From contig CAWHOY010000008.1 in assembly GCA_963831155.1 (NCBI GenBank), positions 252,281 to 316,280 on the forward strand: a stretch of DNA of 64,000 nt. The letters run 5' to 3'. Made by a program: the position numbers and the translations under genes. The DNA comes from an uncultured Acidimicrobiaceae bacterium (GTDB lineage Bacteria; Actinomycetota; Acidimicrobiia; Acidimicrobiales; Bog-793). This document shows, piece by piece, positions 36,561 to 43,925 of this stretch (position 1 is its first letter; every line of letters starts with the position of its first letter). The notes beneath the pieces are model-generated. The model was not told the DNA's origin. It searched no databases and saw only the letters and a program-made list of their open reading frames with translations.

Positions 36561-37796
36561 TCAGTCGCCGGAGCGGACCGTCAACGTGTGGTTGGAAGCG
36601 ACCGCTGCAGCCGATTGGGCCGGCGTCGCGACCGGGTGACCGCTCTGGACCATCTGCCAGGTGTTGCCGCCGGTGAACGACGATCCGTCAGCCGTCGTCA
36701 TCGTCATGTTCGTGAAGGTGATCGGCGAGAAGCCGTCGACGAAGGGTTCCGTCGGTGCGCCGGGGTCTTCGACGATCCACTCGGCGGTCCCGGCAGGTCC
36801 GGAGTAATTGACCGGCTGCGTCGACTGGTACGAGGCGCCAGTCGTCTCATCCGTCACCGACCACATCCATCCGCCCCTCGTCTGCCAGACCGATGCCGAG
36901 ATCGTGTCGCCGCTGTTCACGGTTCCGAGGGCGTTCGCGGGTCCCGGGTACGACTCCCACCAGGCCTCGTTTTGTTGCTGACCGTCGATGCAGTACGAGT
37001 ACACGCCGTCCTGGAAAAGCAGGTTCGTGCCAGGTCCCGAGGACTCGGCACCGTCGACGCCGAGCCAGGCGCCGAGCCACGAGTTGCCAGTTCCACAGGT
37101 GACTGATGGCACCGTCCAGGTCGCGGACACCGCCTTCGCGGGGGAGTCGAGCGTCGAGACATATCCCGCCCAGCTCGCCGACTCCTGAGCATTCGTCGTC
37201 GGGGAGACGGAATTCGTCGAGGCGTCACTTGTCGGAGAGCCGGCCGACGAATCTGAGGCCGCCCGTGACGAAGCCTTCTTGGTCGAGTGGTGAACGTGCA
37301 GGTGGATGGTGAGGTCGTGGGAGACGGTGCCGCCGGAGCGATTCTTGGCGATTAGCCGCAGCTCTGCCAGGTGCGCAGACGTAGCGAGATTCGGACCGAA
37401 TCGAATTCGCTCGGTGAAACGCCCGTTCGCGCACGACCGCCAACGCCTCGAGAAGTGCGCCCTCACGGGGCCGCGAGGGGCGAGGATGAGACGACAACTC
37501 GTCGAGTTCTCGACATGTGCTCTCACCAAGACGCTCTCACCCCGCCACGAAAGACCAAGGGCGCGTGCGTGGACCGAGACGAACGCCGGCGGGACCTTCT
37601 CCCGACCGACGGCGCCAGCAGGAAGGACGAACGCGGCCCCGACTGCCGTCGCGAGTCCGATTCCGGCGATGAAGGTGATCAGGCGACGGTGCCGTGAACG
37701 CGCTGGCGCAATCGCGATCGCGAGGGCGCGTCCTGATTCTTCCCCGTCGGTACGCGCCGACTGGCACCGCTCCGTTCGCCCTACTTGAACACTCAT
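36561..37796 (-). CDS. membrane-anchored/secreted peptidase G1 (eqolisin, glutamic peptidase) with an N-terminal Ig-like/pro region
   Basis: The C-terminal ~210 aa align by eye to aspergillo/scytalido-glutamic peptidases: SWAGYV, WTVPSV, GAWLGVDG, LFQDGV (catalytic Gln), NEAWWESYP, AEWIVEDP (catalytic Glu) and SPITFTN. ATG 37796 is preferred over GTG 37817. Confidence 0.85.
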   Translation of the reverse strand: MSVQVGRTERCQSARTDGEESGRALAIAIAPARSRHRRLITFIAGIGLATAVGAAFVLPAGAVGREKVPPAFVSVHARALGLSWRGESVLVRAHVENSTSCRLILAPRGPVRAHFSRRWRSCANGRFTERIRFGPNLATSAHLAELRLIAKNRSGGTVSHDLTIHLHVHHSTKKASSRAASDSSAGSPTSDASTNSVSPTTNAQESASWAGYVSTLDSPAKAVSATWTVPSVTCGTGNSWLGAWLGVDGAESSGPGTNLLFQDGVYSYCIDGQQQNEAWWESYPGPANALGTVNSGDTISASVWQTRGGWMWSVTDETTGASYQSTQPVNYSGPAGTAEWIVEDPGAPTEPFVDGFSPITFTNMTMTTADGSSFTGGNTWQMVQSGHPVATPAQSAAAVASNHTLTVRSGD

Positions 37797-38064
37797 TGTC
37801 AGTGGTAGCCTTACCACTGAGAGTGGTTACTTCAACGCTAAAAGTACTCAAATCAGTACATGACGTGGTTTAGTCAGCTCTAATGCGGTTGTGTCAGAGC
37901 GCCTCTGGTACGAACCGGTTTTCCTGTCACCACTGACGGACGGTGTGTTTCAGCGAATGGCTGCGAAGAGACCTGGCCACACACGGTCTGCAAAGACGGC
38001 GGTATCTCAGCGTCGGTCTGGGGTCCTCCGCCCTTTTGGGCGTCGGCTGATTCGCGTCAAGGAG

Positions 38065-39213
38065 TTAGGCGCGGCGCGCCGACCGACGCATCCGGCGCCT
38101 AGCGCGCGCTCCAATCGCGATGAGTCCCGATCCGACTGCGAGGATCGCGATCTCGTAGGGCCGCGAACCTGCCCACGGTTCGCCGGTGTGTGGTTTCGTT
38201 GCCATCGGAACCGCTTTTGGCAGCCCAACCACCTTCACCGTGACCGTGTTCGTGTGACAGGGGGTCGCCGAAGTCCCGCAACTGGAGGCGCCTGTGCTCG
38301 AGTACAGAGCGGAGTTCGGGATCACCTCATTGTTCGAGTCGCTCTTGTTGACGGTGACTGAGAAAGTCACCGTCACCGTCCCTCCGGCATCGATCGTCAG
38401 CCCTGTCCAGGAGACGACGCCACCGGCTTCCGACGCCGTGCAGCCATGGGCGCTGTGGCAATCCGCCGATCCAGCCACGTAGGTCGCCCCCGTCGGAACG
38501 TGATCCGTGACGTGCACTCCGGTCGCCGCCGCGGTGCCAGAGTTCGTCAACTTGATGAGGTATTCGACCGTCGAGCCCAGTGCGACCGTCGAACCCGACG
38601 TCGGGACCGAGGACTTCGTTGCCGTCAACTTCGGCTTGCCCGACGGAGTGCTGGGCGGGCTGCTCGACGGCGTGCTCGACGACGTGCTCGATGAGGAGCC
38701 GGGAGGCGATGACGAGCCCGGTGGCGCCGGCGGCAAATTCACGGTGAACGGTTCGCAAGGGCTCGGACCACCGAATATGTAGTCGCTTGGCTCGCCGGAG
38801 TACGTCGCTTGGAAGCTGTAGCTACCGGCGGCGAGCGGGCCGGTCGCCTGGGAGTTCGGCACCGGGGGGTTCGGGACCGCGTTCAGCGTGACCGTTTGCG
38901 GCCATGTGTTGCCGTTCAGGCTCGTGACCGCACCGCTGCTCGCGCACGTGCTGTTTGTGAAGAGGGCGTAGCTCACGGTCGTCGTTGTCGTCGGAGTGGC
39001 GGCGATCGACACCGTCGCGGTGTCGTACGCGGACGCGCCGGCGACTTCTTTGTTGGTCCAGCCGGCGTTCGTCGACGCGTCGTAAACGACGGTCGAGATT
39101 GACGTGTCCGCTCCAGCTGGCGCCGCGAAAAGCGCGATCGGCGTGACGATGGTCGCCGCCAGCAAAGCAACGATTGCCGCCGGTCTCCACAACGTTCGGA
39201 CGAGATGCTTCAT
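38065..39213 (-). CDS. cell-surface protein: signal peptide, Ig-like domain, Ser/Pro linker, DUF11-type repeat, C-terminal sorting signal with KPHTG
   Basis: Signal peptide MKHLVRTLWRPAAIVALLAATIVTPIALFAAPAGA. DUF11 pattern GSTVEYLIKLTNSGTAAATGVHVTDHVPTGATYVAGS..VSWTGLTIDAGGTVTVTFSVTV. Tail LPKAVPMATKPHTGEPWAGSRPYEIAILAVGSGLIAIGARARRRMRRSARRA. The ORF is open upstream to 39279. Confidence 0.8.
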   Translation of the reverse strand: MKHLVRTLWRPAAIVALLAATIVTPIALFAAPAGADTSISTVVYDASTNAGWTNKEVAGASAYDTATVSIAATPTTTTTVSYALFTNSTCASSGAVTSLNGNTWPQTVTLNAVPNPPVPNSQATGPLAAGSYSFQATYSGEPSDYIFGGPSPCEPFTVNLPPAPPGSSSPPGSSSSTSSSTPSSSPPSTPSGKPKLTATKSSVPTSGSTVALGSTVEYLIKLTNSGTAAATGVHVTDHVPTGATYVAGSADCHSAHGCTASEAGGVVSWTGLTIDAGGTVTVTFSVTVNKSDSNNEVIPNSALYSSTGASSCGTSATPCHTNTVTVKVVGLPKAVPMATKPHTGEPWAGSRPYEIAILAVGSGLIAIGARARRRMRRSARRA

Positions 39214-39270
39214 GGCTTGACACGACCCCTTCGCACAATCGGTGGCAACAAAAAGCGTCGGTTTCGCCAT
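39214..39270 (-). other. upstream-ORF homolog fused in frame to the surface-protein gene (MAKPTLFVATDCAKGSCQA)
   Basis: ATG 39270 directly follows GGTGGAGGGA. This is the paralog of the 17-codon uORF at 43177-43230, but with CAA where the other copy has TAA. Confidence 0.4.
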
Positions 39271-39291
39271 TCCCTCCACCGCCCAACGTGG

Positions 39292-39305
39292 CGACCAAAT
39301 GGTCG
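39292..39305. promoter_or_regulatory. near-palindrome CGACCAAATGGTCG, candidate operator
   Basis: One central mismatch relative to the perfect palindrome at 43252-43265. Same position relative to the uORF. Confidence 0.35.
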
Positions 39306-39726
39306 AGCGGTTTCAACGGATCGCATGGCACTTCATAGGTCCACACGCCAGCCCCAGCGACGTATGAAAGAGACCCTCTTTCTCCTTGCTCGACTGGAAG
39401 CGCCCCCAGCGATGAGTTTTCTAACCAATCGCCTACTACGGGGCGAATCATAATCTTGGGGCAACGAATTCGAACCAGGCAAACTAGTCCGATTTGGGGG
39501 TTTCCGAGGACTGATCGTGAGCCGTCGAACGCGATTAGTAGTGGACCGTCTGTTTACAGGGTTCGGCGGGCGATCGGTTCCGACGGAACGCGGGCCTTCG
39601 GGAAGCGGCACGTCCGACCGAACGTGAGTTATTGGAGTCCGAGCGCTCGGCTGGCTTTCACACCGACAACTGTCACTGATGACCGCGTCAGCTCGTCACT
39701 TGAGCTCGTTTGGTCGGGCGGTCGAG

Positions 39727-40863
39727 TTAGACCCGGTTCATCGCCCAAGAAGATATGTAGAGCGAGTGGTCGCGGATCGTCTGGAGCACCGTGACCGAGT
39801 ACTCGCCTCCTCCGACACTGAGGGTGTCAGTGAGCAGCACCTTGGTCGCTGTCATCCCGTAAGCGGTCACCGTGACATTCAGTCCGCCGTTGTATCCGGG
39901 GTTCCCCGAGCCGACGAGCGGGGGAGGGGCTGAAACTCCCGGTGCGAGATCCCTCCACCAGTCGAGGCGGTTCTCGTTCAGCGCCCGGACAGCGGCGATG
40001 AACGAGTCAACTGCAGAGTCCTGGACGAGCAACGGGCTCGTTGTTTGCCCCCACGCCGGGTTCGGCTTGCCGTTCAGCGCGAAACTCCCCATCGGCACCG
40101 GGTAGGTGGCAAGCGTGATCCCCTGGGAGGAGAGCGCCGGGGGAGCGGGGACCGCCGGCGGCGGGGTCACCCCGGGATAAGTGGTGGGCGCCGAGCTCGT
40201 CGTACGCGTGCCGACGATGACCGCCGACAGCACGTAGCGATCCGGTGTGTACCACAGCGCGTTGGTTGGCCAGCAGGTGACGAGCGTGATCGAGGGATTC
40301 GGCGTGTTGTAGACCGGCGCGCCGGACGCGACGACGGAGTGGCTCTCGACGCGGAAGTAATAGGTCTTGCAAGGCGTGACGTAGAGCACCTCGTCGCCGA
40401 CCTTCAAGAGCTGGAGGTTCTCGAAGTAGCTGACATCGTGGGCGACGAGCACCGAAGTTCCGACCGACCCCGGCCACACCGAATAGGGGTCGTGGCCGAC
40501 GGCGACGTTCAGCTGCGCGTCGTTCTCGTTCTGTTCGACCGGCGCCAGGACACCGAGCTTGGGGATCTCCAGCAGCCCTTGGACGAGGTGCTGTTTCGAG
40601 GATGACAGCTTGCACGAGACGAGGACGCCGTTCGAGGGCTCCACCGAGTGCGACAGCGGCGCGGCGAGGTTGTTCTCTTTCAAGAACTCGCGCACGAGCG
40701 CGTGACCGACTCGATTTGATCGCGCCGTCCAGGCCCAGGCGTAGGCCTGCCAGGCGCCGACGCCCAAGATGAGCAACAGGCCGGCAGCGATGATCACCCG
40801 GTAGCGCCAGCGCTTTGGAAAACGGGCGGGGTGATCGCCGCGGCGCGGACGGAGGAGTGACAT
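39727..40863 (-). CDS. sortase (N-terminal TM anchor, catalytic domain) with Pro-rich linker and an extra ~150-aa C-terminal domain
   Basis: SVLVAHDVSYF (His), ITLVTCWP (TLxTC Cys) and PDRYVLSAV (Arg). TM segment RYRVIIAAGLLLILGVGAWQAYAW. After ..VIVGTRTTSSAPTTYPGVTPPPAVPAPPALSS comes a further domain ending ..SLYISSWAMNRV. ATG 40863 is preferred; the ORF is open to GTG 40962. Confidence 0.85.
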   Translation of the reverse strand: MSLLRPRRGDHPARFPKRWRYRVIIAAGLLLILGVGAWQAYAWAWTARSNRVGHALVREFLKENNLAAPLSHSVEPSNGVLVSCKLSSSKQHLVQGLLEIPKLGVLAPVEQNENDAQLNVAVGHDPYSVWPGSVGTSVLVAHDVSYFENLQLLKVGDEVLYVTPCKTYYFRVESHSVVASGAPVYNTPNPSITLVTCWPTNALWYTPDRYVLSAVIVGTRTTSSAPTTYPGVTPPPAVPAPPALSSQGITLATYPVPMGSFALNGKPNPAWGQTTSPLLVQDSAVDSFIAAVRALNENRLDWWRDLAPGVSAPPPLVGSGNPGYNGGLNVTVTAYGMTATKVLLTDTLSVGGGEYSVTVLQTIRDHSLYISSWAMNRV

Positions 40864-40916
40864 CTCGAGCGAGTCTTGCGCACCGGTGCCGGATAGCGTG
40901 AGCGCCGCGGGACGGG

Positions 40917-40946
40917 GGATCCCCGGTCTTATCGGACCGGGGATCC
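40917..40946 (-). promoter_or_regulatory. perfect 12-bp-stem intercistronic hairpin between the large substrate gene and the sortase gene
   Basis: GGATCCCCGGTC-CGATAA-GACCGGGGATCC (mRNA sense). No U-tract follows it. Confidence 0.6.
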
Positions 40947-40995
40947 TGTCACGTCGCTTCACGTGCGAATCACAGCTATCAGCGCGCCAACTCGG

Positions 40996-43173
40996 TCATG
41001 CACGGCGCGCCGCCCGACGAGCCCGGCGCCGGGAACACCCGCCGAGGGCGAGGAGTCCAGCTCCGAAGACGAAGATGGCGATCTCGTAGGAACGAGAGCC
41101 CGCGAACGGCTCACCAGTGTGCGGCTTGGTGGCTTGCGGGACCGCCTTTGGCAGCAAAACCTTTGCCTTGAAGCTGACCTTGGCCTGGACCGCGTTGGTT
41201 TCGCACGTCGTCGCCGAGCAGCTCGGCGTGCCCTTGTTCGAGAACACGGCGACATTTTGGATCACCTGGCGGTTGGCGTCGCTCTTGTTGATGGTCACGT
41301 TGAATGAAACCGTCGCCGACCCACCGGCGTTGATAGTCATCCCCGTCCAAGAAACGACGTTGCCGCTCTCTGATGCCGTGCAGCCCGTCGCGCCATGGCA
41401 GCTTTCCGATCCCGCAACATAGCTGGTTCCCGTCGGAACGTGGTCGGTCACGTTCACTCCGGTTGCTGCCGCGGTGCCGGAGTTCGTCAGCGTCACGAGG
41501 TACTCGACGCCCGAACCCAACTTGACAGTCGAGCCCGGCTTCGGCAACGACGTCTTTTTCGCCGTCAATTGCGGGGTGCCCTTCGGCGATGCTGGCGGCA
41601 GGGTCACGCTGAAGCATTCGCTCGAGGCCGTCGTGCCCGAGACGTTGTCGGATGAGCCGTTGTAGGTCGTGTCGCCGCTGTAGACCGCCGAGAAGCAGTA
41701 GCTCCCACCAGCCGCCGGCATGAACGCCGGTGATGTCGCGGTGTTCGTTTCTCCAGAGCCCGTTCCGAGCGTCACCGGGTTCGTGCCCGATACCAAGTCG
41801 ACGGAATTCGCCGCGCACGTACCGGATTGACCCGTTGCCGATGAGACCAGACAGACATAGAAGGAGACGGTCCCCGTCGGCGTCGGTAGCCCGGCACCCG
41901 GGGTCAGACTGCTGACCGTCGCTGTGTCGGTAACGGTGGTCCCGGAGCTGAGCGTGACGTTGCCCGTCGAAGCCGTCGTCGCCGTGGTCGCACCGGCGGG
42001 ACTCACGACGAGCGTTTCGTCACCGCACGTGCTGAGTGCCGACCTGCTGTTCAAATCGCCCGAGTAGGACGCCTGCCAGTAGTAGATACCCGCCTGGTCG
42101 AAGGCGACGGACGCCGAGTTTGGCACGACCCCTCGGGTCACAGTGACCACAGGCGGCTGTCCGCTGATCTGGGTCGTCGCCGCGGTCGAGCAGTTGCTGT
42201 TCGTGTAGACGGTGTAACTCAGCGTCCCGCTCGCGTTCGAGCTCGCCCCGATAAGGTTCGCCGTGTCCTTGTCAGAGCCCCCGATGGCGATTGGTGAACC
42301 GGGCGAGAGCGAGGTCGTGATCGAAGGCGTCGCCTCGTTCACGGCGAGCTGCTCAGTGGAACAGCCCGAGACCGCCGGTGCGTTGTTGCTGTCGCCGGAG
42401 TAGAAGGCCGCCCAGTAGTAAGTGCCGGCGGGGTTGAAAGTGACCGAGGCCGAGTTCGGGATCGTGCCGCCCGAGAGCGTCACCGACCCGACGTTCGTCC
42501 CGCCTGTCGGCGCGGTTCCGCCCACCAAGGCCGTCGCATCGGTCTGGCAGGCCGTCGAGCTCGAGTAGTAGCGGTAGTCGACGGTGCCCGTCGGGTTTGA
42601 TGCCCCGGTGAGACTCGCCGTGTCCTTGTCAGAGCCCCCGACGGCGATTGGTGAACCGGGCGCGAGTGAGGTCGTGATCGAAGGCGTCGCCTTGTTCACG
42701 ACGAGTTCCTCGTTGCAACAGTCCGAGACCGCCGGTGCGTTGTTGCTGTCGCCGGAGTAGAAGGCCGCCCAGTAGTAAGTGCCGGCGGAGTTGAAAGTGA
42801 CCGAGGGCGAGTTCGGGACCGTGCCGCCCGAGAGCGTCACCGACCCGACGTTCGTCCCGCCTGTCGGCGCTGTCCCTTTTTTGGAAAACGCGCTCACGTC
42901 GGTCTGGCAGGCCGTCGAGCTCGAGTAGTAGCGGTAGTCGACGGTGCCCGTCGGGTTTGATGCCCCGGTGAGGCTCGCCGTGTCGTGCACGAATGTTCCT
43001 GCGTGGATCGGAGAACTTGGCGAGAGCGAGGTCGTGATCGAAGGTGTCGCCTTCCCCCACGCGCCAGACGTCGGCGCGTTCACGGCCAGAAGCACGATCG
43101 GAACGAGCACGCCCGATGCCGACAACGTGACGATCGCAGCGGTTCTTCGGAACCTACGAACGAGATCCTTCAT
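40996..43173 (-). CDS. large cell-surface protein: signal peptide, 3-4 Ig-like repeats, DUF11-type repeat, C-terminal sorting signal with KPHTG
   Basis: 725 aa. Signal peptide MKDLVRRFRRTAAIVTLSASGVLVPIVLLAVNA. Repeats of ~119 aa (ATPSITTSL..GTVDYRYYSSSTACQTD..AGTYYWAAFYSGDSNNAPAVS). DUF11 pattern (GSGVEYLVTLTNSGTAAATGVNVTDHVPTGTSYVAGS). Tail LPKAVPQATKPHTGEPFAGSRSYEIAIFVFGAGLLALGGCSRRRARRAARRA. Confidence 0.85.
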   Translation of the reverse strand: MKDLVRRFRRTAAIVTLSASGVLVPIVLLAVNAPTSGAWGKATPSITTSLSPSSPIHAGTFVHDTASLTGASNPTGTVDYRYYSSSTACQTDVSAFSKKGTAPTGGTNVGSVTLSGGTVPNSPSVTFNSAGTYYWAAFYSGDSNNAPAVSDCCNEELVVNKATPSITTSLAPGSPIAVGGSDKDTASLTGASNPTGTVDYRYYSSSTACQTDATALVGGTAPTGGTNVGSVTLSGGTIPNSASVTFNPAGTYYWAAFYSGDSNNAPAVSGCSTEQLAVNEATPSITTSLSPGSPIAIGGSDKDTANLIGASSNASGTLSYTVYTNSNCSTAATTQISGQPPVVTVTRGVVPNSASVAFDQAGIYYWQASYSGDLNSRSALSTCGDETLVVSPAGATTATTASTGNVTLSSGTTVTDTATVSSLTPGAGLPTPTGTVSFYVCLVSSATGQSGTCAANSVDLVSGTNPVTLGTGSGETNTATSPAFMPAAGGSYCFSAVYSGDTTYNGSSDNVSGTTASSECFSVTLPPASPKGTPQLTAKKTSLPKPGSTVKLGSGVEYLVTLTNSGTAAATGVNVTDHVPTGTSYVAGSESCHGATGCTASESGNVVSWTGMTINAGGSATVSFNVTINKSDANRQVIQNVAVFSNKGTPSCSATTCETNAVQAKVSFKAKVLLPKAVPQATKPHTGEPFAGSRSYEIAIFVFGAGLLALGGCSRRRARRAARRA
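42001..43053 (-). repeat. intragenic tandem repeats (about 360, 357 and 336 bp) encoding Ig-like modules
   Basis: Units 1 and 2 are near-identical at the DNA level (for example the blocks starting at 42361 and 42718, offset 357 bp). Unit 3 is diverged. Confidence 0.8.
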
Positions 43174-43176
43174 GGC

Positions 43177-43230
43177 TTAACACGACCCTTTCGCACACTT
43201 GATGGATACGAAGAACGTCGGTTTCGCCAT
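43177..43230 (-). other. 17-codon upstream ORF MAKPTFFVSIKCAKGSC, stop TAA 3 nt before the main ATG
   Basis: ATG 43230 follows TTGAGGGA. The stop TAA at 43177-43179 is followed by GCC and then ATG 43173. It is conserved with 39214-39270, with several third-position-only differences. Confidence 0.45.
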
Positions 43231-43251
43231 TCCCTCAACCGCGCAACGTGG

Positions 43252-43265
43252 CGACCATATGGTCG
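43252..43265. promoter_or_regulatory. perfect 14-bp palindrome CGACCATATGGTCG, candidate operator
   Basis: Lies about 20 nt upstream of the uORF ATG, inside the most conserved leader block, preceded by TTGAAAC. Confidence 0.4.
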
Positions 43266-43649
43266 GGCGGTTTCAACGGGACGCCCAGCAACTGCTCGAT
43301 ACAACGCCGAATCGATTTCGGCGTTCGAATGGGAGACTTCTCTCCCCAGTTGCTCAACCGGAGACGCCTCCCGGCGTGTCGCGAGCGGTGAATCAACACT
43401 CGCTACGAAAAATCATGGATGAGGAGGCGTAACGTAACAAGGCATGAATGAATCAGATGCATCAGAATTGCGCGCTTTCCGAGGACTGTTCGTGAGGTAT
43501 CGAACACGATTAGTAGCGAAACGTGAACGGAGGCGAATTTGGTGCCGCGCTCGAAACGGGCATCGTGTATTGCATGACGCGCTCGACGCGTGGAGTAGCG
43601 GCGAGGCGCGAGCGGACGATCATGTCGCGTAAATGATTTCTCAACGCAA

Positions 43650-43722
43650 TGGCGGGTAGTTCAATCGGCAGAACGCCTGACTTTGGATCAGGAGGTTGGA
43701 GGTTCGAGCCCTCCCCCGCCAG
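43650..43722 (+). tRNA. tRNA-Gln (anticodon UUG)
   Basis: Cloverleaf drawn by hand. Acceptor TGGCGGG/CCCGCCA with U1:A72. D stem GTTC/GAAC with GG in the loop. Anticodon stem CCTGA/TCAGG with loop CTTTGGA. Variable loop AGGTT. T arm GGAGG-TTCGAGC-CCTCC. Discriminator G. No encoded CCA. Confidence 0.9.
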
Positions 43723-43925
43723 CAACTCGTTGTAAGACCAAGGCTGATCTGCGTCGTTTTGATAACACCTGATGTGGGACGCAGCACGGCTGATCCGATA
43801 ACGGGTGATGCTTGACACCGGCCCGCCTGTCATCCGCTCAGATGGCGCGAGGAGGTGCCGGTGTCGCTCCAATATGTTGTGAAGCGCGGCCTGCAGCACG
43901 TCGTGAGGGCAGGCGGAGGGTTCCT

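What the first reader, a model, noticed from the sequence alone, without database searches (positions are those of the whole stretch)
39214..39545. Paralogous ~330-nt leaders upstream of both sortase-substrate genes
Seen: the regions upstream of the two surface-protein ATGs (39214-39545 and 43174-43520, minus-strand genes) share three conserved blocks in the same order and at similar distances. Block 1 is 39214-39320 vs 43174-43280 and is almost identical over ..GTCGGTTTCGCCATTCCCTC.ACCGC.CAACGTGGCGACCA.ATGGTCG.GCGGTTTCAACGG. Block 2 is 39370-39407 vs 43332-43372. Block 3 is 39501-39541 vs 43476-43516 (TTTCCGAGGACTG.TCGTGAG....TCGAAC.CGATTAGTAG). The N-terminal coding regions downstream are much less similar. 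Any protein reading of block 3 falls in different frames in the two copies, so its conservation is at the nucleotide or RNA level. Copy B additionally carries a perfect 9-bp hairpin (AACGCCGAA-TCGAT-TTCGGCGTT, 43303-43325). Inference: a shared long 5' leader or promoter module, possibly a cis-regulatory RNA, that coordinates the two substrates.
Basis: seen in the sequence. Interest (0 to 1): 0.6.

Follow-up and report, generated by a model that had tools for sequence, protein, structure and literature searches.

The report
Paired c-di-GMP-II riboswitches before surface-protein genes
The conserved stretch just upstream of both sortase-anchored surface-protein genes is a class II cyclic-di-GMP riboswitch, a known kind of RNA sensor that probably switches on translation of both adhesin-like proteins when the second messenger rises; the rest of the ~330-nt leader is conserved but its role is unresolved.

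Summary
Block 1 is 92/106 identical between the two copies, against 64% for the first 106 coding bases. Block 3 is far above chance. Block 2 is marginal as sequence but is a hairpin in every copy.

Block 1 is a c-di-GMP-II-clan riboswitch aptamer (39247-39332 and 43207-43292, minus strand). Rfam calls copy A at threshold. A model built from 64 unrelated aptamers of the same subtype scores both copies at 62 and 57 bits. The pseudoknot and the ligand-pocket AA are kept; the triplet that defines the Rfam 'GAG' variant is GAA here.

The 3' half of each aptamer can instead pair with the Shine-Dalgarno sequence and the AUG (-20 to -29 kcal/mol in five orthologues). This predicts a translational ON switch.

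The whole unit from block 3 to the ATG is about 72% conserved in another species, while the DNA just upstream is unalignable. Block 3 probably marks the promoter or 5' end, but this is not shown.

The closest precedent is the Clostridioides difficile class II riboswitches upstream of the sortase substrates CD2831 and CD3246. This is a new member of a known kind, of modest interest.

The parts
39247..39332 (-). Aptamer A: c-di-GMP-II-clan riboswitch aptamer (P1-P2-P3 plus pseudoknot); 'GAA' subtype
   Evidence: Rfam RF03169 scores 44.4 bits (cut-off 40) and RF01786 scores 44.0 bits (cut-off 53.5), both full length. The independent model R1 scores 61.9 bits, E 5e-20, at 39251-39328.
43207..43292 (-). 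Aptamer B: paralogous c-di-GMP-II-clan aptamer. It has a C-C mismatch in P3 and a U at the junction after P1.
   Evidence: RF01786 scores 34.9 bits, E 8e-6, below the cut-off. R1 scores 56.6 bits, E 5e-18, at 43211-43288.
39212..39270 (-). Expression platform A: an alternative hairpin. The aptamer 3' strand AUGGCGAAACCGACGCUUUUUGU pairs with GCGAAGGGGUCGUGUCAAGCCAU, which covers the SD GAAGGGG (39226-39232) and the AU of the start codon (39211-39213).
   Evidence: The platform alone folds at -20.0 kcal/mol, with the same architecture in five orthologues. 95.8% of cells are paired, against 37-48% for slid controls. No terminator-like site was found.
43172..43230 (-). Expression platform B: the same sequestering hairpin; SD GAAAGGG at 43186-43192; start codon at 43171-43173.
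   Evidence: -23.0 kcal/mol; pair counts; no terminator-like site.
39366..39382 (-). Block 2 hairpin A: GAAAGAG-GGU-CUCUUUC
   Evidence: MFE hairpin at -6.9 kcal/mol, z -1.5. A hairpin is kept at this place with different stem sequences in B, L148 and L152.
43331..43346 (-). Block 2 hairpin B: GGGAGA-GAAG-UCUCCC
   Evidence: -10.4 kcal/mol, z -1.9.
39401..39445 (-). Leader domain A, closed by the helix CGCCCC (39440-39445) / GGGGGCG (39401-39407).
   Evidence: The helix pairs in A, B and L148 with one compensatory change. The domain folds at -20 kcal/mol, z -2.2.
43364..43430 (-). Leader domain B, closed by the helix ACGCCUCC (43423-43430) / GGGAGGCGU (43364-43372).
   Evidence: -26.9 kcal/mol, z -3.0; pairing.
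39488..39549 (-). Block 3 A: the 5' boundary module of the conserved leader (CTACTAATCGCGTTCGACGGCTCACGATCAGTCCTCGGAAA). It is a candidate promoter/5' end or operator.
   Evidence: Significant similarity to copy B. Alignability to L148 stops at its 5' edge. It is 36/47 identical between B and L150. Its first part is 100% identical in the strain-level relative L157, where the preceding spacer varies.
43462..43524 (-). Block 3 B
39447..39452 (-). TATGAT, an alternative -10 candidate inside the 12-nt patch ATTATGATTCGC, which is conserved with L148. The equivalent in copy B is TACGTT at 43431-43436.
   Evidence: It is one of the few TANNNT hexamers in the leaders and is positionally conserved in A, B and L148. 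It conflicts with the adjacent RNA helix if the TSS lies downstream of it.
43303..43325 (-). Perfect 9-bp hairpin found only in copy B, between block 2 and the aptamer.
   Evidence: Read directly. There is no T-run after it and no terminator call.
38065..39213 (-). Regulated gene A: surface protein, DUF11/DUF7927, with a C-terminal KPHTGEP + hydrophobic + Arg-rich sorting signal.
40996..43173 (-). Regulated gene B: surface protein with Big_3_5 repeats, DUF11/DUF7927 and the same sorting signal.
39727..40962 (-). Sortase gene between the two units, 33 nt after gene B.
   Evidence: PF04203, E 3e-18. Homologues are named class D sortase by NCBI.

Best explanation
Each surface-protein gene carries its own class II cyclic-di-GMP riboswitch.

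Shown here: the 86 nt that end 33 nt before each ATG have the c-di-GMP-II fold (short P1, P2, k-turn-like UGA/GGAG, 8-bp P3). They also have the pseudoknot between the P3 loop GGUCGCCA and the 3' tail UGGCGA-AA-CC, with the two bulged adenines of the ligand pocket intact.

Inferred: without ligand, the 3' tail (AUGGCGAAACCGACGCUUUU) pairs instead with the Shine-Dalgarno sequence and the start codon (GAAGGGGUCGUGUCAAGCCAU), which blocks ribosome loading. When c-di-GMP binds, that tail is locked into the pseudoknot and P1. The SD and AUG are then free and the protein is translated, so this is an ON switch. Both sortase substrates would rise together with c-di-GMP, the usual signal for a sessile or adhesive state.

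The ~200 nt upstream belong to the same conserved unit. They comprise block 3, a helix-closed domain and the block 2 hairpin. Most likely block 3 holds the promoter -10 and the 5' end of a long structured 5' UTR. That part is inference only.
For: Family identity:
- Rfam hits lie on the correct strand, are full length, and occur at the same offset in both copies.
- Model R1 was built from 64 aptamers of other genomes that share only the search pattern, and 13 of 17 of its pairs show compensatory changes. It scores the two copies 61.9 and 56.6 bits, and nothing else in the window scores above 13 bits.
- Relative to the RF01786 consensus, the pseudoknot keeps pairing through two double changes, G-C to U-A and A-U to G-C (alignment).
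- The pocket residues A69, A70, C71, C72, G73 and A74 of structure 3Q3Z (list in PMC7288161) are all present.

Platform:
- The same three-part sequestering hairpin is the MFE in A, B, L148, L150 and L152, at -20 to -28.6 kcal/mol.
- 95.8% of cells are paired, with 7 wobble-compatible one-sided changes.
- There are no terminator-like sites.
- GGGUCGUGU..AGCCAUG is conserved well beyond what an SD needs.

Physiology:
- Class II switches are ON switches, and in C. difficile they control the sortase substrates CD2831 and CD3246 (PMC6366702; PMC7583470).
- Aptamers of the same subtype elsewhere precede S8 peptidases, Ig-like and camelysin-like secreted proteins, a GT2 glycosyltransferase and a HAMP-GGDEF-EAL protein.

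Leader unit:
- A vs L148 aligns as one block from 0 to 326 nt upstream of the ATG (245/340). B vs L148 aligns from 0 to 347 (254/360). Nothing upstream of that aligns.
- Third codon positions of the neighbouring sortase gene are only 63% identical.
Against: - Neither copy reaches the curated RF01786 cut-off (44.0 and 34.9 bits against 53.5). Copy B passes no Rfam cut-off.
- P1 is only about 3 bp. In L148 it is almost absent (my reading).
- Copy B has a C-C mismatch in P3 and a U where the family has a conserved junction A. That junction is part of the A13/A14 contact region.
- C68 of the pocket is A here, with its partner G39 changed to U. The effect on ligand choice is unknown.
- The platform hairpin shows no double compensatory change, and the structure was derived from these same sequences.
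- No GGDEF/EAL gene lies in the window.
- No consensus promoter was found anywhere in the leaders, so the transcript's 5' end is unknown.
Confidence: 0.8

Rival explanations
1. The aptamers belong to a specificity variant and sense a ligand other than c-di-GMP, as proposed for the GAG/GCG variant classes. The architecture is the same but the signal differs.
For: - Copy A's best Rfam hit at threshold is the GAG-variant model.
- The pseudoknot strands are identical to that variant's consensus except for one base.
- The pocket pair G39-C68 is U-A here.
- The junction A is U in copy B, L150 and L152, and G in L148.
Against: - The base that defines the variants (G in place of A69) is A in both copies, so both bulged adenines are canonical.
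- 4 of 18 other GAA aptamers pass the canonical RF01786 cut-off, so Rfam's label does not track the triplet.
- The downstream gene classes, including a GGDEF-EAL protein and adhesin-like proteins, fit c-di-GMP.
Confidence: 0.1
2. Block 3 is not RNA but an upstream DNA site (activator/repressor operator or UP-like element) about 50-105 bp ahead of a promoter whose -10 is TATGAT (A) or TACGTT (B). On this view the 5' UTR is only ~230 nt.
For: - TATGAT/TACGTT are the only positionally conserved TANNNT hexamers, and they sit in a 12/12 identical patch between A and L148.
- In L150 a TTGCTC-N18-CAGATT candidate (my reading) would place block 3 at a similar -100 to -55.
Against: - The helix CGCC(C/U)C / G(G/A)GGCG starts 2 nt after TATGAT. 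It pairs in A, B and L148 with a compensatory change, which needs that sequence to be transcribed.
- L150 has TTGACA-N17-TGC-TACTCA, with TACTCA being the first bases of block 3.
- No palindrome or second genomic copy typical of an operator was found.
Confidence: 0.3
3. The similarity of the two leaders is just the residue of a recent segmental duplication or gene conversion. On this view nothing beyond the aptamer has a function.
For: - A and B are paralogues: their C-terminal halves are 50-70% identical.
- Blocks 2 and 3 are missing or only weakly detectable in the more distant orthologues L150 and L152.
- Fold z-scores for blocks 2 and 3 are modest.
Against: - The whole 330-nt unit is ~72% identical to an orthologue whose sortase is only 74% identical in protein. 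The adjacent spacer is unalignable.
- Leader block 1 is more conserved than the adjoining coding sequence.
- The strain-level relative L157 varies in the spacer but not in block 3.
Confidence: 0.15

Closest known systems
[quoted passage not shown] 2015, cited there)
   Same: A class II aptamer in the 5' leader of sortase-dependent, adhesin-like surface proteins. Two substrates are co-regulated by the same messenger. The logic is an ON switch. A secreted protease gene lies nearby.
   Different: - The host here is an Acidimicrobiales-type actinobacterium with high G+C.
- The platform is predicted to act on translation (SD/AUG sequestration) rather than on transcription termination, which is what PMC6366702 describes for the C. 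difficile pilA1 class II switch Cdi-2-4.
- The pseudoknot sequence differs (GGUCGCC/GGCGA).
- There is an extra ~200-nt conserved leader upstream.
- The neighbouring peptidase A4 gene has no riboswitch. In C. difficile, ZmpI has a class I OFF switch.
Rfam RF03169 c-di-GMP-II-GAG variant aptamer (clan CL00127)
   Same: The helices and pseudoknot strands are the same (CGGuCGCC ... UGGCGA.ACCG). It occurs in the same high-G+C lineages. Copy A scores above its cut-off.
   Different: The defining triplet is GAA, not GAG, in both copies. In this subtype the first bulged adenine (A69) is retained, as in canonical c-di-GMP-II.
Tandem c-di-GMP-II riboswitches upstream of surface anchor proteins (COG4932) in Paraclostridium (PMC9481103)
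   Same: The c-di-GMP-II class is associated with cell-surface anchor proteins, and more than one aptamer serves one function.
   Different: Here there is a single aptamer on each of two separate paralogous genes that flank the sortase, not doublets or triplets on one mRNA.

Membership tests
c-di-GMP-II riboswitch (Rfam RF01786) | Score at or above the curated gathering cut-off (53.5 bits) | tested here: not met
   44.0 bits (A) and 34.9 bits (B), both full length, E 2e-8 and 8e-6. 4 of 18 other GAA-type aptamers do pass.
c-di-GMP-II riboswitch (Rfam RF01786) | P1-P2-P3 secondary structure with the UGA / GGAG internal loop | tested here: met
   Alignments to RF01786, RF03169 and R1 cover all model positions. 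P3 has 8 pairs (one C-C mismatch in B), P2 has 3 pairs and P1 only ~3 pairs. UGA and GGAG are present. The helices covary in the 64-sequence GAA alignment.
c-di-GMP-II riboswitch (Rfam RF01786) | Pseudoknot between the P3 loop and the 3' tail | tested here: met
   GGUCGCCA pairs with UGGCGA-AA-CC in both copies. Against the consensus GGGCAC / GUGC-AA-CC, two pairs changed on both sides and stayed paired (read from the alignment).
c-di-GMP-II riboswitch (Rfam RF01786) | Pocket nucleotides A69, A70, C71, C72, G73, A74 (3Q3Z numbering; PMC7288161) | tested here: met
   ...GGCG-A-AACCGA... in both copies.
c-di-GMP-II riboswitch (Rfam RF01786) | Pocket nucleotides G39-C68 and the junction adenines A13/A14 | tested here: inconclusive
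   G39-C68 is replaced by U-A, so the pair is kept. The junction base is A in copy A but U in copy B. It is A in 45 of 64 family members.
c-di-GMP-II riboswitch (Rfam RF01786) | Selective binding of c-di-GMP | not testable with these tools
   Needs in-line probing or ITC.
c-di-GMP-II riboswitch (Rfam RF01786) | Sense orientation in a 5' leader, with an expression platform that overlaps the aptamer's 3' strand | tested here: met
   The aptamer ends 33 nt before the ATG, and the alternative hairpin uses its 3' strand.
c-di-GMP-II-GAG variant (Rfam RF03169) | Score at or above the cut-off (40 bits) | tested here: inconclusive
   Copy A scores 44.4 bits. Copy B is not reported at gathering.
c-di-GMP-II-GAG variant (Rfam RF03169) | GAG at the variant-defining triplet (G in place of A69) | tested here: not met
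   UGGCGAAACCG in both copies. Not filed as a member.
Sortase-anchored surface protein (the regulated genes) | N-terminal signal peptide; C-terminal xPxTG-type motif, hydrophobic stretch and basic tail; sortase gene adjacent | tested here: met
   Both proteins have a signal-peptide-like N-terminus and end in KPHTGEP...hydrophobic...RRRxRRxARRA. A PF04203 sortase lies between them. The motif is KPHTG rather than LPXTG, and cleavage was not tested.

The most novel reading that the evidence does not exclude
The aptamers of this Acidimicrobiales clade deviate at three ligand-contact positions: U39-A68 instead of G39-C68, a junction U or G instead of A in copy B and the orthologues L148, L150 and L152, and a flipped P2 pair. 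They may therefore sense a related but different nucleotide signal rather than c-di-GMP. On this reading the conserved 200-nt upstream leader is a second functional RNA domain.
Probability: 0.1. Interest if true: 0.6.

Novelty: new member of a known kind. Interest (0 to 1): 0.3.

Why it matters
It gives a concrete, testable regulatory model for a sortase/adhesin locus in uncultured Acidimicrobiales: c-di-GMP turns on translation of two anchored surface proteins.

It extends the pairing of a class II c-di-GMP riboswitch with sortase substrates, known from Clostridioides difficile, to a distant high-G+C phylum.

It also exposes an annotation gap. Standard Rfam thresholds label copy A as the 'GAG' variant although it carries GAA, and they miss copy B entirely. 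Public gene calls on this contig miss gene A and place an ORF across its aptamer.

The unexplained 200-nt conserved upstream leader is a small open question.

Tried and rejected
- **Consensus promoters and terminators.** The strict sigma-70 and intrinsic-terminator scans of both leaders and of L068 found nothing. Manual searches for -35/-10, ECF-type GGAAC-N-GTT, sigma-28 and BldD-box (TNAC-N5-GTNA) patterns in block 3 gave no hit consistent across copies (my reading).
- **Leader peptide.** No frame stays open in A, B and L148, and the alignment gaps are not multiples of three.
- **A second known RNA.** Permissive Rfam scans of both leaders gave only noise outside the aptamer.
- **Block 3 elsewhere.** A fuzzy search of 120 riboswitch loci found it only in L068/L150, and the window holds no further copy.
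- **Long-range pairing of block 3.** RNAalifold proposed pairing with the region before the aptamer, but with many mismatches and a positive covariation term. I did not accept it.
- **Metagenome scan.** The pattern returned 27 loci, of which 25 were chance matches in unrelated sequence with no aptamer.
- **Distant sortase homologues.** Homologues at 57% identity or less are not syntenic and lack the aptamer.
- **Surface-protein homologue route.** It mainly recovered the window's own contig, L158.
- **Literature.** The Weinberg 2017 PNAS paper on variant classes and the Smith 2011 structure paper are not in the library. What I say about the variants' ligands therefore rests on memory.

Full report
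**Observation.**
On the minus strand the locus reads as follows. A divergent tRNA-Gln lies on the plus strand at 43650-43723. Then come leader B, surface protein B (43173..40996), a sortase (40962..39727), leader A, surface protein A (39213..38065), and a peptidase A4 gene.

Iterative local alignment of the two leaders gives three collinear blocks:
- Block 1, 39214-39319 vs 43174-43279: 92/106 identical, ungapped, abutting the ATG.
- Block 3, 39488-39549 vs 43462-43524: 50/63 identical, score 59 against 18.5 +/- 2.2 for shuffles.
- Block 2: a weak match, score 25, inside the shuffle range.

The first 106 coding bases are only 64% identical and the first 150 residues only 34%. No frame stays open across the leaders of A, B and an orthologue. 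Only block 2 is weak as a sequence match.

**What block 1 is.**
Rfam places a c-di-GMP-II-clan aptamer at 39247-39332 and at 43207-43292, both on the gene strand and both full length. Copy A passes the cut-off of the 'GAG' variant model (44.4 vs 40) but not that of the canonical model (44.0 vs 53.5). Copy B (34.9 bits, E 8e-6) passes neither.

To get evidence independent of these thresholds, I scanned one genome per species for the pseudoknot-plus-core pattern. They come mostly from Acidimicrobiia, other Actinomycetota and Chloroflexota, with a few from other phyla. Of the matches, 67 carry UGGCGAAACCG and 54 carry UGGCGAGACCG.

Sixty-four non-redundant GAA sequences, none from the window or its close relatives, give an alignment in which 13 of 17 predicted pairs show compensatory changes. 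A covariance model built from them scores the window copies at 61.9 and 56.6 bits (E about 1e-20 and 1e-18). Nothing else in the window scores above 13 bits.

**Which member of the clan.**
Three alignments can be lined up:
- canonical consensus: GGGCAC ... GUGC-AA-CCG
- GAG variant: GGuCGCC ... GGCGA-GA-CCG
- window copies: GGUCGCC ... GGCGA-AA-CCG

A review (PMC7288161) lists the ligand contacts in structure 3Q3Z as A13, A14, U37, G39, U60, A61 and C68-A74.

The window copies keep A69, A70, C71, C72, G73 and A74. They differ from the canonical form by a G39-C68 to U-A swap, plus a second compensated pseudoknot pair. They differ from the GAG variant at exactly the defining base.

I therefore file them in the clan as a 'GAA' subtype with a canonical adenine pair, not as the GAG variant. 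Rfam's own labels do not track this triplet. Of 18 other GAA aptamers, 4 are called canonical and 14 'GAG'.

There are several deviations:
- P1 is only about 3 bp.
- The middle pair of P2 is C-G, where all 64 family members have G-C or A-U.
- Copy B has a C-C mismatch in P3.
- Copy B has a U at the junction where 45 of 64 members have A.

**How it probably works.**
Only 33 nt separate each aptamer from its ATG, and no terminator-like site exists there.

In A, B and the three orthologues, the minimum-energy fold of the 3' part is the same three-part hairpin, at -20 to -28.6 kcal/mol:
- (A/G)UGGC pairs with GCCAU, which overlaps the AUG.
- CCGAC pairs with GUCG.
- The U-rich tract pairs with the purine-rich Shine-Dalgarno sequence.

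Its 5' strand is the aptamer's pseudoknot strand plus the P1 3' strand, so the ligand-bound fold and this hairpin exclude each other.

On a five-sequence alignment 95.8% of cells pair, against 37-48% when partners are slid. There are seven one-sided, wobble-compatible changes and no double change. The hairpin is thus supported by conservation and energy, not by covariation.

The inference is a translational ON switch. This matches the ON behaviour reported for class II switches (PMC6366702; PMC7583470).

Aptamers of the same subtype elsewhere precede S8 peptidases, Ig-like and camelysin-like secreted proteins, a family-2 glycosyltransferase and a HAMP-GGDEF-EAL protein. That fits c-di-GMP biology.

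**The rest of the leader.**
Sortase homologues led to syntenic loci.

In L148 the sortase is 74% identical and third codon positions are 63% identical. There, leader A's orthologue aligns to A as a single block from the ATG to 326 nt upstream (245/340). It aligns to B out to 347 nt (254/360). Nothing aligns beyond that point. The conserved unit therefore starts at the 5' edge of block 3.

A strain-level relative, L157, has about 17 substitutions and two indels in the 185-nt spacer after the sortase gene. It has none in the 46 nt that run into block 3.

More distant orthologues (L150, L152) keep only the aptamer and platform. L150 also has a 36/47 match to block 3, placed about 108 nt closer to the aptamer.

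Within the leader:
- Block 2 is a hairpin whose stem differs in every copy: GAAAGAG/CUCUUUC, GGGAGA/UCUCCC, GGAG/CUCC and GGAGA/UCUCC. Fold z-scores are modest, from -0.2 to -1.9.
- A helix CGCC(C/U)C / G(G/A)GGCG closes a 50-70-nt domain in A, B and L148, with one compensatory change.

**Block 3: promoter or operator?**
No consensus sigma-70 promoter is detected.

Two readings remain:
- (a) Block 3 holds the -10 and the transcript's 5' end. In L150 a perfect TTGACA lies 17 nt upstream of TGC-TACTCA, and TACTCA is the start of block 3. The conservation boundary sits there. The helix next to TATGAT needs that region to be transcribed.
- (b) The conserved TATGAT/TACGTT about 240-260 nt upstream of the ATG is the -10, and block 3 is an upstream protein-binding site.

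I favour (a) at roughly 45% against 30% for (b). The remainder goes to a TSS further upstream or to no function. Only TSS mapping can decide.

**Comparison and verdict.**
The closest known system is the pair of class II riboswitches that turn on the sortase substrates CD2831 and CD3246 in Clostridioides difficile. Class II aptamers are also known in tandem before surface anchor proteins (PMC9481103).

This locus is a new member of that known kind, in a different phylum. It has a predicted translational platform, a GAA pseudoknot subtype and an unexplained conserved upstream leader.

Confidence is high that these are c-di-GMP-II-clan riboswitches. It is good that the ligand is c-di-GMP. It is moderate for the ON-by-translation mechanism. 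It is low for any specific role of blocks 2 and 3.

Noticed in passing
window 38065-39213 (-); L158 9541-10170: L158 (ENA ERZ25039509 contig_32189, 769 kb) is the window's own contig or a near-identical copy: both of its ends match the window exactly, though the full sequence does not. The public gene calls there miss surface-protein gene A and instead call a 209-aa ORF across aptamer A. Protein A found no self-match among 5.8 billion proteins; its best hit was its paralogue B at 50%.
   Followed up: partly
L157 337-1087 vs window 41610-43649: In a relative at ~95% nucleotide identity, leader B (with its riboswitch) and most of gene B (its 5' part) are replaced by ~750 nt of unrelated DNA that carries an opposite-strand gene. 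Only a C-terminal remnant of gene B is left before the sortase gene.
   Followed up: partly
window 36561-37817 (-): A peptidase A4 gene follows the sortase/substrate cluster here and in the orthologous loci L149, L150 and L152. No aptamer precedes it. This recalls, but does not match, the ZmpI protease next to CD2831 in C. difficile.
   Followed up: partly
window 43650-43723 (+): A tRNA-Gln(UUG) gene lies divergent from leader B, 126 nt from the outer edge of block 3. This limits where gene B's promoter can lie.
   Followed up: no
window 42555-42571 and 42915-42931 (-): An identical 17-mer is spaced 360 nt apart inside gene B, reflecting near-identical tandem Ig-like (Big_3_5) repeats of about 120 aa.
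   Followed up: no
L001-L120 (genome scan): In the truncated scan, the GAA and GAG forms of the same pseudoknot type are about equally common (67 vs 54) in high-G+C lineages. Rfam thresholds call most GAA aptamers 'GAG variant' (14 of 18).
   Followed up: partly
L045 3685-4702; L095 3643-3729 and 5489-5574: Other genomes also carry several clan aptamers close together. L045 has three within 1 kb, including one called as the GCG variant. L095 has two, placed before two paralogous S8 peptidase genes, a parallel to the paired leaders here.
   Followed up: no
L152 370-3172: In the orthologous locus L152, a LuxR-type response regulator, a second receiver protein and a PAS histidine kinase lie just upstream of a 940-nt intergenic region that holds the riboswitch. 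No such regulators flank the window's copies.
   Followed up: no
window 39333-39611 (-): A 92-aa GTG-started ORF spans blocks 2 and 3 of leader A and stops right at the aptamer. It has no counterpart in B or L148 and is most likely spurious.
   Followed up: yes
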